Origin: the human T2T-CHM13v2.0 reference genome, Homo sapiens
DNA: 64,000 nucleotides
Reading direction: 5' to 3' (one strand)
Assembly (NCBI RefSeq): GCF_009914755.1
Contig: NC_060947.1
Each line of letters begins with the position of its first letter. The stretch's first letter is position 1. Shown here one piece after another: positions 7,700 through 32,566 of the stretch. Under the pieces are notes generated by a model. The model ran no database searches and was not told the DNA's origin. It saw nothing but the letters and a program-made list of their open reading frames with translations. Both the position numbers and the translations under genes were made by a program.

Positions 7700-8900
7700 C
7701 AGCGTGCGGCGTCTTCGCCCTGGAGAAGCATTACGCTGGCCCGCCTGCCTCCAGGGCCACACGGAAACGTGTTCTGCAAACTTTCTCCAAGGGCTCGGGG
7801 GCTAGATTGTGTCTCGCTCCGCTGCCTCTCCCCCTGCCTCAATTTCGACTCCTGCCAGACAGCTCAGCCCCTCCCTCTGGCAGTCACCCCGCCCGGAGTG
7901 GGAGTGGTCAACGAAGCTGCAAAATGGATCGCAAGTCCCCACACACGTCCGACCCCTCCCCGCGCCCTGACCACGAACGCATCCCTGACTTAACCGCCAC
8001 ACTCGGGCCGTGAGCGCCTGCCAGCAGGGCCTTCCGCCACACACACACACACACACACCGCAAGCAGCGGCGACCAGGGCAGGAGCCCACTCCCCGCCAC
8101 CTGCAGGCGTCGGACCCGAAGTCCACGAGCCGGAACTCAGAGCAGGAGCCGAAGGACCCCAGCGCAGAATCCGTGGAGGCGCACGGCTTCATCCACCGCG
8201 CTCCCAGATGGGGTCCCAGCCCAGATCCGGCCACGAAGACACAGGCAACCCCGGCCTGGGTTTCCTGTTCCATGAGCTCCAGGAAGGCGACAGTCAGTGC
8301 TTGTCTGGGGACCCGGACCGGTGCTTTGGGGAACTCCCCCGGAGGGAGAGAGTTTGGGGAACTCTCCCGAGAAGGGAACTTTCCCGGAGAGGGGGGCGTG
8401 GACCGGACGCTGCTGCGCCTCCTCTCTCAGGCCGCGGTTCTATGCTGCCCTGTGCCCGCGCCAAACGCCCTGATCTCTCTCTGTCTCCTCTCTCAATCTC
8501 TCTTTGCCTTTCCTCCTTTCCAGATGCGAAGGCTGTAGGGACTTTGGTGACTGAAGCTGGAGGAGACGAGGAGAAGAAAATACGGTCCAAACCCGAGCAG
8601 GGAGCTGGAGCAGAAGAAGAAAGTCACTTCTGTGCGGGAGCTGCCGACCCCACGATCAAGGATAACCAGAAGCGCGGCGGTGGCGACCAGGAGCCCTCGC
8701 AGCAGCAGCCTGAGGCTTCCAGCCCAGGACTCCTCCGCGGAGGAGCCACAACCCCAATATTAGCGGCGTCTCTTCAGCCCCAGTGCGTTCAGCAGGTTGC
8801 ACCTGAAGGAGCTAGACAGCATTTTCCCACGCTCTGAATATCTCGACGTGTTCGCTCGGTAAGCGGCTTGCTCTGGAGCTTCCCAGTTCCCAGGACTCTG
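7700..8900 (+). promoter_or_regulatory. CpG-rich promoter/5' region of copy A with (CA)n at ~8038-8058
   Basis: Dense CpG, GC-box-like motifs and a CA microsatellite upstream of the ATG; paralogous in B and C. Confidence 0.65.
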
Positions 8901-9739
8901 GGGCTCTTCCCTGGACGCCTTTGGCTCTACCCATGTCTCTTTACCAGGCTCCAGTGCCAAGAGCTATTTAGGGGGCTCAAGGCCACTGGCTCAGGGCCGC
9001 TCTTGAGCTGTGGGATGCGGGCGATAGCAACTGGGCATCAAGGTATTTTTCAAGCAGTATAGATACGAATCAAGTTAAATATTTGCATTAAAATTATTAA
9101 TCTTCGGGCTGGTGCTGTGGCTCATGCCTGTAATCCGAGCGCTCTGGGAGGGCAAGTCAGGAGGATCACTTGAGTCCAGGCGTTCAGGGCCAGGCTGACC
9201 AATATACTGAGACTTCATCTCTACAAAAAATTTTGTAAAATTAGCTGGGCATATTAGCAGCACGCACCCGTAATCCAAGGTGCTCTGGAGGATCGCTTGA
9301 GCCCAGAGTTCAAGGCTTCAGTGAACTGTGATCCGGCCACTGCCTTCCAGCCTGTGCTACAGAGCTAGACCCTGTCTCTAAAATTAGATACATAGATAAA
9401 TTACATGAATAGATGACAGATAGATAGAGATAGAAAAATCTTGAATCCTAAGTGTTTTAGCCCTCTCTGAAATTCTGCACACAAAGGAAAACAATCCCCT
9501 ACCTAATGCAAGCCTGGGGCTATTTTTAGGTATCACAGAAAAATGTGCAGGAGCAGTTGGGAGGCTAGACATTTTCAAACTGGTATGAAATGTTCATAGG
9601 TGTATTTCGTTTCATCCACAATTCCAAATACTGAATTTTTGTAGTTTTCTTTCCCAGAAAGCAGCTTGCAATCTGCATGGATGTGAGTGAAGCCGAAGTG
9701 GAAGCCAGTAAGCCTGATGAAAGCAATTGGTCAGAGTAG
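8208..9739 (+). pseudogene. RHOX/ESX1-like paired-class homeobox relic, copy A (RHOXF1P-type); exons 8208-8292, 8524-8858, 9658-9703(+33 nt to TAG 9737-9739)
   Basis: ATG 8208; donors GTCAGT (8293) and GTAAGC (8859); pyrimidine-rich CAG acceptors ending 8523 and 9657. Translation resembles ESX1/RHOXF N-termini (RSKPEQG, GGGDQEP..QQQ) and homeodomain helices 1-2 (AFSRLHLKELDSIFPRSEYLDVFAR|KQLAICMDVSEAEVE). The 46-nt middle homeobox exon is typical of RHOX/ESX1. Lesions relative to B/C: +1 nt near 8716-8722 and TAG at 8761-8763. Confidence 0.9.
9107..9382 (+). mobile_element. AluJ-like in intron 2, shared by all copies
   Basis: Orthologous diverged Alu at B 15580-16183 and C 31200-31478. Confidence 0.85.
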
Positions 9740-29630: not shown

Positions 29631-30531
29631 ACCAGTAATACCAAAAACTCCTTAGTTGTTAGAAATTCCTCAAGAGAATATTCCCTCACAAAGCTCAATT
29701 TGTGCCGTATCTTCCAGGTATATATTTGAGTGTATGCAATTCTTTTTTAACCTTTTCAGCTTTCTAAGGTGAGTGGAACCTTATTCAAAATTTTTCTTGT
29801 TTATTCCAATTTTTAGGCAAATTTCTAGTTTGAAAACCTGCCCCCCCACACCCCCACTGTACTGCAAGTATATTAGCAGAGCATTCACGCTTACAAATCA
29901 AAGTATTCCAGAAAATTTAAATTAAGTGCTGCCACGTTCTGCATGGCCTCATCAGACACTTAAAAACAACAGCAGGACCACCAGCCAAGAGTACTTTTAA
30001 GTTATGTCCTCCCCATCAGTCTCAGTGAAACTAAACATACATTAATTACTCATTTAGTGTCTTCTCTCTCTGTGTAACTTACTCCCTTTCCCCAATGCCT
30101 GAATATTTATAAATTCAGTCATTTAGCTAAGAAGGTAGCCTGGTTTAAATATTTTAAATACAATTGAAACTTCTCACATCCTGGCTCCTTGGTGCATTAA
30201 TTTGCGTAGTTCTTAAGTCACACTCAGTCACAACATAACTCCATACAGAAGTGTTCTCCAAAGGTTACCATTGTTAGAAGGAATTGAACTTTATCTTAAT
30301 TTTGTATAGGAAATAGCAGTAGCAGTTCAGTTCTGTTTAATTTTATTTTTCCATTAGAAAGCAAATTCCCTCTGTTAATGGGAAATTTCCACAAGCTAAT
30401 GTTTACATATCCTACTTTTCACCCCCTAAAATTCAAAACTCACTTCGCAAACATAAAAAGGCAACACATACAGGCCAATTGGAGAATGTGTAGGACAAAG
30501 TATCCAAGGTCTGAGGCAGGTTTCAGAGTGG

Positions 30532-32566
30532 CTACTCTGACCAATTGCTTTCATCAGGCTTACTGGCTTCCACTTCAGCTTCACTCACATCCATGCATAT
30601 TGCCAGTTGCTTTCTGGGAAAAAAAAACCACAAAAGTTCATTATTTGGAATTGTGGATGAAATGAAATACACCTATGAACATTTCATACCGGTTTGAAAT
30701 TATCTATCCTCGCAACCGCTCCAGCACATTTTTCTGTGATACCTAGCCCCAGGATTGCATTAGGTAGGAATGGTTGTCCTTTGTGTGCAGACTTTTTTTT
30801 TTTTTTTTTTTTTTGGACAGAGTCTGGCACTGTCACCCTGGCTGGAGTGCAGTGGCACAATCTCGGCTCACTGCAACTTCCGCCTCCCGGGTTAAAGTGA
30901 TTCTCCTGCCACAGCCTCCTGAGTAGCTGGGATTATAGGCACCCGCCACCACGCCCAGCTAATTTTTTTGTATTTTTAGTAGAGATGGGGTTTCACTATA
31001 TTGGCCAGGCTGGTCTTGAACTCCTGACCTCATGATCCGCCTGCCTCGGCCTCCCTAGGTGTCGGGATTACAGGCATGAGCCATCATGCCCCACCTGTGT
31101 GCAGAATTTAAGAGAGCACTAAAACACTCACGATTCAAGATATCTCTGTCTATGTATCTATCTATGTGTCTATCATCTATCTAATCTATCTATGTATCTA
31201 ATTTTAGAGATAGGGTCTAGCTCCGTGGCACATAGTGGAGGGCAGTGGCATGATCACAGTTCACTGAAACCTCGAACTCCTGGGCTGAAGCGATGCCTCA
31301 GAGTAGCTTGGACTACAGGTGCCTGCTAATACGCACCACTAATTTTACAAAATATTTTGTGGAGATGGAGTCTCACTATATTGCTCAGGCTGGTTTTGAA
31401 CGCCTGGACTCAAGTGATCCTCCTGACTTGGAGTCCCAGAGCACTGAGATTACAGGCGTGAGCCACCCACCAGCCCGAAGATTAATAATTTTTAATGCAA
31501 ATATTTTAAAAATCACGACCGATGAAAAAAAATCCACAATAACCAAATTGTCAAAATTTTCAATAAAGGCAAGATCCAATCCTGTAGGACTCACTTTCCT
31601 CACGCTGATGTCAATCGCGATTCCAATAAAACATTTACAAAAACAGGAGTCTAGCCAAAGTTTCCCAGTTTGATTCGTTGATACACTGTGTGAAAAATAC
31701 CTTAATGCCCAGTAGGCATCGCCCCCGCCCCACAGCTCAAGAGCGGCCTTGAGCCCCATACTTAGCCTTGTGGCCTTGGGCCTTGTGGCCTTGGGACCCC
31801 TACATAGCCAGGGGCCTTGAGCCCCCTACATAACTTTTGACTTTGGAGGAGAGGGAAGGCGACTGGGGCAGAGCCAAAGGCGGCCCTAGAAGAGCCCTAG
31901 CGTCCTGGGAACTGGGCACCTCCAGAGCAAGCTGCTTACCAAGCGAACATGTCCGGATATTGAGAAGGTCAGAAAATGCTGTCTAGCTCCTTCAGGTGCA
32001 ACCCGCCGAACGTGCTGGGGCTGAATAGACGCTCCTGATCTTGGGGTTGCGGATCCTCAGCGGAGGAGTCCTGGGCCAACTCCTCAGGCTGCTGCTGCCA
32101 GGGCTCCTGGTGGCCACCACCGCCCTTCTGGTTCTCGTGGATCATGGGGTCCGCAGCTCCCGCGTACACGTGACTTTCTTTTCCTGCTCCTGCTCCCTGC
32201 TCGGGTTTGGTCCGTATTTTCTTCTCATCGTCTCCTCCAGCTTCAGTCACTGAAGTCTCTATATCCTTCGCATCTGGAAAGGAGGAAAGGGAAAGAGAGG
32301 TCGGAGGAGAGAGCTGGAGAGAGAGAGAGAGATCAGGGCGTTTGGCCCAGACACAGGGCAGCCTAGACCCGTGGCTGAGAGAGACAGCGCAGTAGCCTCG
32401 GGTTCACGCTCCTCTCTCCGGGAAAGTTGCTTTCCAAGAGTTCACCAAATCACCGGTTCGGGTCCCCAGACAGGCACTGACCGTCTTCTTTCTGGAGCTC
32501 ATCGAACAGGAAACCCAGGCCGAGGTCGCCGGTGTCTTCGTGGCCGGATCTGGGCTGGAACGCCAC
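30532..32566 (-). pseudogene. RHOX/ESX1-like homeobox relic, copy C; exons 32566-32482, 32273-31940, 30613-30568
   Basis: No frameshifts (85/334/46 nt), but start codon is GTG (32566-32564), CGA>TGA at 31971-31969, and the exon2/3 junction codon is TG|A (stop). The ORF track shows MTEAGGDDEKKIRTKPEQG...LHLKELDSIF. Confidence 0.9.
30793..31096 (-). mobile_element. AluS-like in intron 2, private to C
   Basis: TSD TGTGTGCAGA; empty site in A (~9473) and B (~15502). Confidence 0.9.

What the first reader, a model, noticed from the sequence alone, without database searches (positions are those of the whole stretch)
8208..32566. Inactivating lesions are entirely copy-specific, so an intact ancestral ORF can be rebuilt
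Seen: A has +1 nt and TAG (8761). B has ATG>ATC, an 8-nt duplication and a 4-nt deletion. C has ATG>GTG and two CGA>TGA changes. No lesion is shared, and majority rule gives an open frame (approx. MASQPRSGHEDTG..GLGFLFHELQEGD|DAKA...RSKPEQGAGAEEESH...QEPWQQQPEE...FSPSAFSGLHLKELDSIFR.SQYPDVFAR|KQLAICMDVSEAEVE). Inference: the gene was functional when duplicated and died three times independently. From recall, its N-terminus looks closer to ESX1 (HSDIGYRSL...RSKPEYG) than to RHOXF1, so it may be a distinct lost RHOX lineage rather than an RHOXF1 copy.
Basis: partly seen in the sequence, partly recalled or inferred. Interest (0 to 1): 0.75.

Follow-up and report, generated by a model that had tools for sequence, protein, structure and literature searches.

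The report
Three decayed copies of a lost ESX1-like homeobox gene
The three human "RHOXF1 pseudogenes" on Xq24 are old duplicates of a separate, now lost ESX1/RHOX-type homeobox gene; their frame-breaking mutations are private to each copy, but all three share a ruined splice site and lack the last exon, so only a truncated ancestral reading frame can be rebuilt.

Summary
- A (RHOXF1P3, + strand): a +1 base insertion and TAG at 8761.
- C (RHOXF1P1, - strand): GTG start and two TGA codons.

The majority consensus is open for 155 codons.

"No lesion is shared" is not quite right. All three copies carry the same destroyed intron-3 donor: CAG|GT became GAA|GC, while ESX1, RHOXF1, RHOXF2B and a fourth relic keep GT. 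None has exon 4, which encodes homeodomain helix 3. Each copy has a different 3' breakpoint. The rebuilt frame therefore stops at homeodomain position 46.

The copies are not RHOXF1 derivatives.
- Their intronic DNA is as far from RHOXF1 (68-70% identity) as ESX1, RHOXF1 and RHOXF2B are from each other. The tree is a star.
- Exon 1, the start codon position and the N-terminus match ESX1 and RHOXF2, not RHOXF1.
- The nearest intact relatives found are lemur "ESX1-like" predictions.

Lesion load fits neutral drift since about the time of duplication. Copy A's 132-codon frame is the published XCP protein.

The parts
2476..11377 (+). Duplicon A, carrying RHOXF1P3 / LOC124908537
   Evidence: Self-BLAST of the window and tail comparison. 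Homology with C runs to 11377.
8208..8292 (+). A exon 1. The ATG is intact. 85 nt, followed by a phase-1 intron.
8524..8858 (+). A exon 2. It has a +1 base within 8714-8722 and TAG at 8761-8763 in the old frame. The shifted frame ends at TGA 8835-8837, which gives the 132-codon XCP frame together with exon 1.
   Evidence: XCP paper passages.
9658..9739 (+). A exon 3 (46 nt, to 9703), the dead donor GC at 9704-9705, and a read-through to the TAG at 9737-9739 shared by all three copies.
14030..22681 (-). Duplicon B, carrying RHOXF1P2. Its intron 3 is cut at about 14026-14030.
17167..17251 (-). B exon 1. The start codon reads ATC (17251-17249).
16590..16924 (-). B exon 2. It has an 8-nt tandem duplication at 16917-16902 (in-frame TAG), a 4-nt deletion at 16860/16859 and a 3-nt in-frame deletion near 16830.
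15244..15325 (-). B exon 3 (15325-15280), the dead donor GC at 15279-15278, and the shared TAG at 15246-15244.
12990..14025 (-). B's 3' flank. It is homologous (70-73%) to sequence downstream of RHOXF1 and abuts B's truncated intron 3. This implies an internal deletion that removed the rest of intron 3 and exon 4.
   Evidence: The deletion is inferred.
28104..36138 (-). Duplicon C, carrying RHOXF1P1. Homology with RHOXF1 intron 3 stops at about 28104, roughly 125 nt short of where exon 4 would begin.
32482..32566 (-). C exon 1. The start codon reads GTG (32566-32564).
31940..32273 (-). C exon 2. It has TGA at 31971-31969. Its last two bases (TG) plus the first base of exon 3 form a second TGA.
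30532..30613 (-). C exon 3 (30613-30568), the dead donor GC at 30567-30566, and the shared TAG at 30534-30532.
27545..28110 (.). An interspersed repeat that lies where C's remaining intron 3 and exon 4 should be.
   Evidence: 1053 first-look candidates genome-wide, 40 scored, 58 matches.

Best explanation
A, B and C are segmental duplicates, each about 8.5 kb, of one ancestral four-exon homeobox gene of the ESX1/RHOX type. That gene lay in the Xq24 RHOX cluster.

The gene was a paralogue lineage of its own, about as old as the split between ESX1, RHOXF1 and RHOXF2. It was not a copy of RHOXF1. B split off first, then A and C separated. This happened after an Alu had inserted in intron 2, so within primates.

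At the first duplication the frame through exons 1-3 was still open. The donor site that joins the 46-nt exon 3 to exon 4 had most likely already been destroyed. The parent could then no longer make a complete homeodomain.

From about that time all copies drifted neutrally. Each collected 2-4 private frame-breaking lesions. Each lost, or never received, exon 4, and each has a different 3' breakpoint.

Copy A kept its ATG. Its +1 shift bypasses the TAG and leaves a 132-codon frame, which is the published protein XCP.

Shown: the lesions, the shared donor change, the absence of exon 4, the distances and the tree.
Inferred: the order of events, and that the donor loss came before the duplication.
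For: Private lesions and the open 155-codon consensus.

Shared donor change: all three copies read GAA|GCCAGT where ESX1, RHOXF2B and D read CAG|GT and RHOXF1 reads CGG|GT. All three then run to the same TAG 11 codons on.

No exon 4:
- window regex;
- tblastn and blastn;
- alignment of C's tail;
- whole genome, 4 matches of 5 candidates, none near the copies.

Three different 3' ends, in coordinates of my own on the RHOXF1 locus turned to gene orientation: B about 10296-10450, A about 11703, C about 12415, with exon 4 at 12539.

Separate old lineage:
- identities of 67-70% to all three genes;
- star tree with a stem of 0.13;
- the same result with relic D added, on 325 columns.

Branching order: (A,C) with B outside has support 100/99. 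A-C is the closest pair in all 5 segments of a 5387-column alignment: distances AC 0.146, AB 0.175, BC 0.180.

The Alu in intron 2 has the same flank junction in all three copies.

Neutral drift:
- Non-CpG divergence is 0.093-0.117 in exons and 0.108-0.129 in intron 3.
- In the simulation, a neutral branch of 0.06 leaves the frame intact with probability 0.055, which corresponds to about 2.9 expected hits. I observed 2, 3 and 3 disabling hits.
- A fully neutral stem (0.127) would leave the frame open with probability 0.002. A stem of 0.03 gives 0.23. So loss of constraint came late on the stem.

XCP: A's spliced frame is 132 codons. The paper's passages describe a 132-aa protein from exons 1-2 of RHOXF1P3. 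A proteomics paper reports 8 and 7 unique peptides covering 89% of the frame (passages). A siamang 132-aa prediction has the same shifted tail.
Against: - The donor lies inside one of the four longest stretches identical in all three copies (32 nt, 9695-9726). It is also in the least variable 60-column window of the duplicon (1 variable site against a mean of 13). Gene conversion could therefore have spread a donor change that arose after the duplication.
- A second 32-nt invariant run covers homeodomain helix 1 in exon 2 (8795-8826).
- Nei-Gojobori dN/dS in the true frame (0.38-0.57) is lower than in the two control frames (0.57-1.20).
- The last two points hint at some constraint after duplication.
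- The three different 3' ends show that loss of exon 4 was not one shared event. B's flank suggests the parent locus still had exon 4 when A/C split off.
- Timing rests on crude clocks.
Confidence: 0.58

Rival explanations
1. The parent was a fully working homeobox gene at both duplications. Each copy was complete and died on its own. The shared donor state is secondary, spread by gene conversion among the copies.
For: - All frame-breaking lesions in exons 1-3 are private, and the consensus is open.
- The three 3' breakpoints differ, so exon-4 losses are also copy-specific.
- The donor sits in an unusually invariant tract, which is compatible with conversion.
- dN/dS is somewhat lower in the true frame than in control frames.
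- Helix 1 is invariant over 32 nt.
Against: - Three changes in the 9-nt donor motif are identical in all three copies. The simplest reading is inheritance.
- Spread to all three copies would need at least two conversion events over the same short tract, including one between inverted copies.
- Overall exon divergence is about equal to intron divergence.
- The lesion load matches neutrality since the duplication.
- There is no evidence that A or the A/C ancestor ever carried exon 4.
Confidence: 0.2
2. Before the duplications the parent had become a gene for a short protein without helix 3. This protein was made by reading through the exon 3 donor to the shared TAG (166 codons). The copies stayed useful for a while, and copy A still encodes a working protein (XCP).
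For: - The dead donor and the TAG 11 codons downstream are shared by all three copies.
- That tract is the most conserved part of the duplicon.
- Read-through models ending just after exon 3 are predicted in other species. Examples are the Microcebus ESX1-like protein of 169 aa and the Theropithecus RHOXF2 of 220 aa.
- XCP is reported to be translated and to bind PHF8 (abstract and passages).
Against: - The invariant tract runs about 50 nt past the TAG, so it is not only coding.
- The same block at the start of intron 3 is conserved in all paralogues, where it is not in one frame.
- B and C are broken early in the frame.
- XCP's last 38 residues come from a shifted frame, so it is not the ancestral protein.
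- Human and siamang XCP differ at 8 of 132 residues, about the neutral expectation by my rough estimate.
Confidence: 0.12
3. As annotated, the three loci are pseudogene copies derived from RHOXF1.
For: - HGNC and RefSeq names. A proteomics paper calls RHOXF1 the parental gene (passage).
- The 3' half of exon 2 is alignable to RHOXF1 (66% identity over about 210 nt).
- BLASTP of the consensus against RHOXF1 exons gives 37% identity.
- The AU test cannot reject a sister relation (p = 0.45).
Against: - DNA distance to RHOXF1 (path 0.42-0.46) equals that to ESX1 and RHOXF2B, and equals the distances among those genes.
- A whole-genome DNA search with exon 2 does not reach RHOXF1: 3 matches, all of them the copies.
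- RHOXF1 lacks the short coding exon 1. Its first 200 nt of coding sequence are not alignable to the copies.
- The promoter, 5' UTR and start codon position align with ESX1 and RHOXF2B.
Confidence: 0.03

Closest known systems
ESX1 (human Xq22.2)
   Same: - Four-exon layout: a short coding exon 1 followed by a phase-1 intron with a G|AT junction codon, and a 46-nt exon 3.
- The start codon is at the same aligned position.
- Promoter, 5' UTR, exon 2 ends, exon 3 and intron 3 are alignable at 67-77%.
- N-terminal motifs of the H-x-D-x-G and RSKPE-x-G type.
- It is the only other genomic hit for the exon-2 N-part.
   Different: - Only 31% protein identity over exons 1-3.
- ESX1 has a basic N-terminal arm, exon 4 and a proline-rich tail.
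- It lies about 15.7 Mb away.
- Its DNA distance to the copies is no smaller than that of RHOXF1 or RHOXF2B.
RHOXF1 (the nominal parent)
   Same: - Same Xq24 cluster.
- Same two intron positions inside the homeobox.
- The 3' half of exon 2 and the homeodomain start are alignable.
- The 3' flank of copy B is homologous to the RHOXF1 3' flank.
   Different: - No separate coding exon 1. Its N-terminal 200 nt of coding sequence is unrelated.
- 68-70% intron identity, no closer than the other paralogues.
- It keeps the GT donor and exon 4.
RHOXF2 / RHOXF2B
   Same: - Same cluster and exon layout.
- The homeodomain N-terminal arm lacks the usual basic residues, as in the three copies.
- Weak grouping with the copies and D on 325 columns (support 70/85).
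   Different: - 30% protein identity.
- It is intact, with exon 4.
Strepsirrhine "homeobox protein ESX1-like" predictions (Microcebus murinus P0011, Propithecus coquereli P0039)
   Same: - These are the best protein matches to the consensus: 52-54% identity and 131-132 bits, against 54-73 bits for human ESX1, RHOXF1 and RHOXF2B.
- They share an exon-3 motif of the ICMDV-x-EA type, seen in P0039.
- The Propithecus model has a full homeodomain (Pfam 45.7 bits, profile positions 6-57).
   Different: - Orthology is not shown. The protein tree is unresolved, and the AU test for a joint clade gives p = 0.16.
- They could instead be the lemur ESX1 orthologues.
- No genomic context was available.
XCP / lncRNA1456 (Gadad et al. 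2026, Oncogene; abstract and passages read)
   Same: It is identical to the 132-codon frame of copy A, using exons 1 and 2.
   Different: - The paper treats it as a young primate polypeptide, distantly like homeobox proteins.
- Here its first 94 residues are the old ESX1-like N-terminus, and its last 38 come from the +1 shift.

Membership tests
Homeodomain (Pfam PF00046) | Helices 1 and 2 with the hallmark residues (L16, F20, Y25-P26, L34-A35, V45) | tested here: met
   The consensus translation has them. Pfam aligns profile positions 6-45 of 57 in P0004, a primate model of copy A read in the old frame. The residue numbering is my own reading.
Homeodomain (Pfam PF00046) | Recognition helix 3 (WFxNRR) encoded by the last exon | tested here: not met
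   Absent from the window. No orphan copy in the genome: 4 matches of 5 candidates, all at known genes.
Homeodomain (Pfam PF00046) | Score above Pfam's gathering threshold (22.9 bits) | tested here: not met
   P0004 scores 17.8 bits. P0005 (C model), P0001 (XCP type) and C's exon 2 translation give no hit.
ESX1/RHOX group of X-linked PRD-like homeobox genes | Two introns inside the homeobox at the family's positions, with a 46-nt middle exon | tested here: met
   Exon 2 ends in phase 2 after the DVFAR-type motif. Exon 3 is 46 nt in A, B and C, as in ESX1, RHOXF1 and RHOXF2B.
ESX1/RHOX group of X-linked PRD-like homeobox genes | Location in the Xq24 RHOX cluster, and locus-wide DNA homology to family members | tested here: met
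   The window lies between NKAP and RHOXF2B (hub table). There are colinear matches to the ESX1, RHOXF1 and RHOXF2B loci.
Pseudogene derived from RHOXF1 (as named) | RHOXF1 is the nearest paralogue, clearly closer than other family members | tested here: not met
   Distances are equal to all three genes. The tree is an unresolved star. The exon 2 DNA search does not reach RHOXF1.
Pseudogene derived from RHOXF1 (as named) | RHOXF1-type 5' structure, with the start codon in the large exon | tested here: not met
   The copies have the ESX1/RHOXF2-type short coding exon 1.
Duplicated (non-processed) pseudogene | Introns retained, and disabling lesions in each copy | tested here: met
   Introns 1 and 2 are present, with GT-AG ends seen by eye. 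Each copy has 2-4 private lesions plus the shared dead donor and no exon 4.

The most novel reading that the evidence does not exclude
The three "RHOXF1 pseudogenes" are the anthropoid remains of a further ancient member of the ESX1/RHOX family. This member is still an intact homeobox gene in strepsirrhine primates, where it is predicted as "ESX1-like", with a full homeodomain in Propithecus. It was silenced by a splice-donor loss and then triplicated on the lineage to humans. Together with relic D next to RHOXF1, the human X would carry five old lineages of this family, not three. The N-terminal two thirds of the cancer-associated protein XCP would be a survivor of the lost gene.
Probability: 0.4. 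Interest if true: 0.5.

Novelty: new member of a known kind. Interest (0 to 1): 0.4.

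Why it matters
The loci themselves are annotated, and copy A's protein (XCP) is published. What I did not find in print is their origin. Three full-text searches, and passages of six papers, treat them as RHOXF1 pseudogenes or state that primates have only RHOXF1 and RHOXF2. Supplements were not read.

If the loci represent a separate lost paralogue, three things follow.
- The gene count and history of the primate RHOX/ESX1 family change.
- The "parent gene" used when interpreting RHOXF1P3/XCP expression is wrong.
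- XCP becomes an example of a protein salvaged from a dead homeobox gene, not a newly born one.

The case also shows that "all lesions private" does not by itself prove the parent was alive. A splice-site defect and a missing last exon are invisible to a frame-only reconstruction.

Tried and rejected
1. I first took the non-basic N-terminal arm of the homeodomain (Pro at position 5) as a shared lesion. I rejected this because the intact RHOXF2B also lacks the basic arm.

2. I first took the missing exon 4 as one shared deletion. I rejected this because the three copies end at three different points relative to RHOXF1 intron 3, and B retains a 3' flank homologous to that of RHOXF1.

3. Protein trees did not place the lineage.
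- The trees had 21 rows on 135 columns and 22 rows on 152 columns.
- The AU test gave p = 0.159 for a clade with the lemur proteins and P0008, and p = 0.141 for a clade with RHOXF1.
- Of the 37 hits of the representative search, I fetched 19. Four others (P0001, P0002, P0004 and P0011's neighbours) came from other calls. The long repetitive hits were left out by eye.

4. Nei-Gojobori dN/dS (0.38-0.57) looked like constraint. However, control frames give 0.57-1.20, and dN equals the intron rate. The signal is weak and partly a CpG effect.

5. The invariant tract around the donor was tested against the whole duplicon. Four runs of 30 nt or more exist, two of them far upstream, so it is unusual but not unique.

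Full report
**What is there**

The window holds three homologous segments of about 8.5 kb (tails):
- A, 2476-11377, + strand.
- B, 14030-22681, - strand.
- C, 28104-36138, - strand.

Each segment carries the promoter, exons 1-3 and part of intron 3 of a homeobox gene. They correspond to RHOXF1P3, RHOXF1P2 and RHOXF1P1 in the hub table. A whole-genome DNA search with A's exon 2 found exactly these three places, at 100, 86 and 81% identity (3 of 3 scored candidates).

**Checking the lesions**

I fixed exon borders from the RefSeq exons of the hub table and from anchors in the sequence. I then aligned the exons of the three copies.
- A has one extra base within 8714-8722, and TAG at 8761-8763 in the old frame.
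- B starts with ATC, has a tandem 8-nt duplication (16917-16902) that creates a TAG, and has a 4-nt deletion (16860/16859).
- C starts with GTG. It has TGA at 31971-31969, and a second TGA formed across the exon 2/3 junction.

A's ATG aligns with the start codons of ESX1 and RHOXF2B, so the B and C states are derived. The majority consensus of exons 1-3 is 465 nt. It reads as 155 codons without a stop, with 8 columns where all three copies differ.

First, the exon 3 donor is destroyed in the same way in all three copies.
- ESX1, RHOXF2B and relic D read CAG|GTCA, and RHOXF1 reads CGG|GTCA.
- A, B and C all read GAA|GCCA.
- That is three changes within the donor motif, at positions -3, -1 and +2. 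I judge the result to be non-functional. This is my reading, since no splice-site scorer was available.
- All three copies then read through to the same TAG 11 codons later.

Second, no copy has exon 4, the exon that encodes recognition helix 3.
- No WFxNRR-type frame occurs in any of the six frames of the window.
- tblastn and blastn with RHOXF1 and RHOXF2B exon 4 give nothing.
- A whole-genome search with the RHOXF1 exon 4 peptide finds four places among 5 candidates: RHOXF1, RHOXF2B, the ESX1 locus, and a third X-linked site at about 118.54 Mb. I take the last to be RHOXF2 from recalled gene order; no call named it.
- Exon 4 is the best conserved part between the intact paralogues (74-80% identity), so a surviving copy should have been visible.

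The rebuilt frame therefore stops at homeodomain position 46 and has no stop of its own. Pfam sees only profile positions 6-45 of 57, below threshold (17.8 against 22.9 bits), in a primate model of copy A read in the old frame.

**The exon 4 losses are not one event**

I measured where each copy's homology with RHOXF1 intron 3 ends, using my own coordinates on the RHOXF1 locus turned to gene orientation. Exon 4 begins at 12539 on that scale.
- B ends at about 10296-10450.
- A ends at about 11703 (window 11373).
- C ends at about 12415 (window 28104).

B's truncated intron abuts a 1-kb flank (12990-14025). That flank is 70-73% identical to sequence just downstream of RHOXF1. I infer that B suffered an internal deletion that removed exon 4.

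C's homology ends at an interspersed repeat, with 1053 first-look candidates genome-wide (alignment).

So the donor change is the only candidate lesion shared by descent.

**Relationship to the known genes**

I took the RHOXF1, RHOXF2B and ESX1 loci from the same assembly and derived their exons from the DNA.

- Over exon 3 plus intron 3, the copies are 67-70% identical to each of the three genes. Those genes are 66-70% identical to each other. The copies are 86-88% identical among themselves.
- The maximum-likelihood tree on 1199 columns gives the three copies as one clade (100/100) on a stem of 0.13. A and C are sisters (100/99).
- The order among the copies' lineage, RHOXF1, RHOXF2B and ESX1 is not resolved. 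AU tests give p = 0.45 with RHOXF1 and p = 0.13 with ESX1.
- The copies are thus not nested in RHOXF1 in any recent sense. A very old sister relation cannot be excluded.

In structure the copies follow ESX1 and RHOXF2B.
- They have a short coding exon 1, a phase-1 intron with a G|AT junction codon, and a conserved 5' UTR block.
- RHOXF1 starts translation inside the large exon, and its first 200 coding bases do not align.
- Promoter homology is detectable with ESX1 but not with RHOXF1 or RHOXF2B.
- A six-frame search of the genome with A's exon-2 N-part finds only the three copies and the ESX1 locus (42% identity, E = 0.027).

RHOXF2B has a related N-terminus, so this is probably retained ancestry.

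**Relatives elsewhere**

Protein searches returned the following.
- A siamang 132-aa "ESX1-like" prediction, 95% identical to A's frame, with the same shifted tail. A's +1 insertion is therefore older than the ape radiation.
- Primate gene models of A and C orthologues.
- 37 representatives at E up to 0.001.
- Among named records, the best matches to the consensus are Microcebus and Propithecus "ESX1-like" predictions. They score 52-54% identity and 131-132 bits, against 54-73 bits for the three human genes.
- The Propithecus model has a complete homeodomain.

Whether these are orthologues of this lineage or the lemur ESX1 genes is open. The protein trees are unresolved.

**When did it die?**

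I estimated indel and substitution rates from the three-way alignment. It has 86 indels of 30 nt or less, 75 of them frame-shifting, and 1177 variable columns out of 5388. Simulated neutral evolution of the consensus then gives these probabilities that the frame stays open:

| Neutral branch length | Probability frame stays open |
|---|---|
| 0.127 (the whole stem) | 0.002 |
| 0.06 | 0.055 |
| 0.03 | 0.23 |

So exons 1-3 were under selection for at least about the first half of the stem. Constraint was lost late.

After the first split, the paths are 0.06-0.10 long. The expected load is about 3 or more disabling hits per copy. The observed load is 2, 3 and 3.

Non-CpG divergence in exons (0.093-0.117) is close to that of intron 3 (0.108-0.129). 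The low dN/dS in the true frame (0.38-0.57) is only modestly below that of the control frames (0.57-1.20).

Together with the shared donor defect, this favours loss of function at or shortly before the first duplication, followed by neutral decay.

**Points against this reading**

- The donor lies in one of four invariant runs of 30 nt or more, and in the least variable window of the duplicon. Gene conversion could therefore have spread it.
- Helix 1 is also invariant over 32 nt.
- I give a scenario with a functional short, helix-3-less protein 0.12.

**Age**

All three copies share an Alu at the same junction in intron 2, so the duplications are primate events. Pairwise distances are 0.146-0.180. 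With recalled primate X rates of about 1-2 per billion years per site, this gives tens of millions of years. That predates the ape radiation, which the siamang protein independently supports. This dating is rough and inferred.

**Copy A today**

A's spliced frame from the ATG is 132 codons.
- The first 94 codons are in the old frame.
- The last 38 follow the +1 shift, which also bypasses TAG 8761.
- This matches the 132-aa XCP described from exons 1-2 of RHOXF1P3 (abstract and passages).
- It also matches the peptides reported in breast tumours (passages).
- Human and siamang differ at 8 of 132 residues. By my rough estimate that is near the neutral expectation.

**Prior art**

I ran three full-text searches and read passages of Wilming 2015, Le Beulze 2023, Niu 2011, Holland 2007, Xiang 2021 and Gadad 2026. 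None analyses the origin of these pseudogenes.
- One calls RHOXF1 the parent.
- Supplements were not read. Subscription papers are outside the library.

**Verdict**

It is probably wrong that the parent was a fully working gene that died three separate times.

Noticed in passing
L007:2671-4121 (+), i.e. chrX 118495670-118497120, outside the window, head-to-head with RHOXF1: This is a further, more divergent relic of the same gene family (D).
- It has a recognisable exon 1, an exon 2 open for 95 codons with a 4-nt deletion at its end, an exon 3 with an intact GT donor, and no exon 4.
- On 325 columns it is another deep branch of the star.
- I did not check whether it is annotated or used by RHOXF1-AS1.
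   Followed up: partly
window 9704-9775, and the same place in B, C, ESX1, RHOXF1, RHOXF2B and D: The first 70 nt or so of intron 3 are visibly better conserved among all paralogues than the surrounding intron. They are not conserved as one reading frame. This may be a splicing element for the 46-nt exon.
   Followed up: no
window 12990-14090: This flank has a 91-93% identical copy about 10 kb upstream of the window (chrX 118347946-118349295). It has 70-73% copies downstream of RHOXF1 and at chrX 118612053-118612589. It may be one of the UPF3B last-exon pseudogenes mentioned by Wilming 2015. That was not tested.
   Followed up: partly
window 27545-28110: This is an interspersed repeat with a further 84% copy at chrX 118334036-118334535. 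The last annotated exon of RHOXF1P1 (27876-27950) lies inside it, so that exon seems to be repeat-derived.
   Followed up: partly
window 5603-5646 and 5271-5302 (A), with their counterparts in B and C: These are the longest stretches identical in all three copies (44 and 32 nt). They lie 2.5-3 kb upstream of exon 1 and have no explanation so far.
   Followed up: no
proteins P0011, P0017, P0027, P0038, P0040 and others: Predicted proteins of several mammals end by reading through the exon 3 donor (tails of the VSKPEK type). They include a Theropithecus RHOXF2 model and a pair (P0027 and P0032) with both a short and a full-length form. Intron-3 retention may be a common isoform in this family.
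   Followed up: no
protein P0001 against A's 132-codon frame: All 8 human-siamang differences lie in the first 94 residues. None lies in the 38-residue shifted tail. The chance of that is about 0.07 by my own arithmetic, so it is not significant.
   Followed up: partly
window 16950-17040 (B intron 1), 17385-17450, 32715-32800 and 8040-8060: Long CT and CA microsatellites flank exon 1 in the copies. The CT run in B's intron 1 is much expanded compared with A and C.
   Followed up: no
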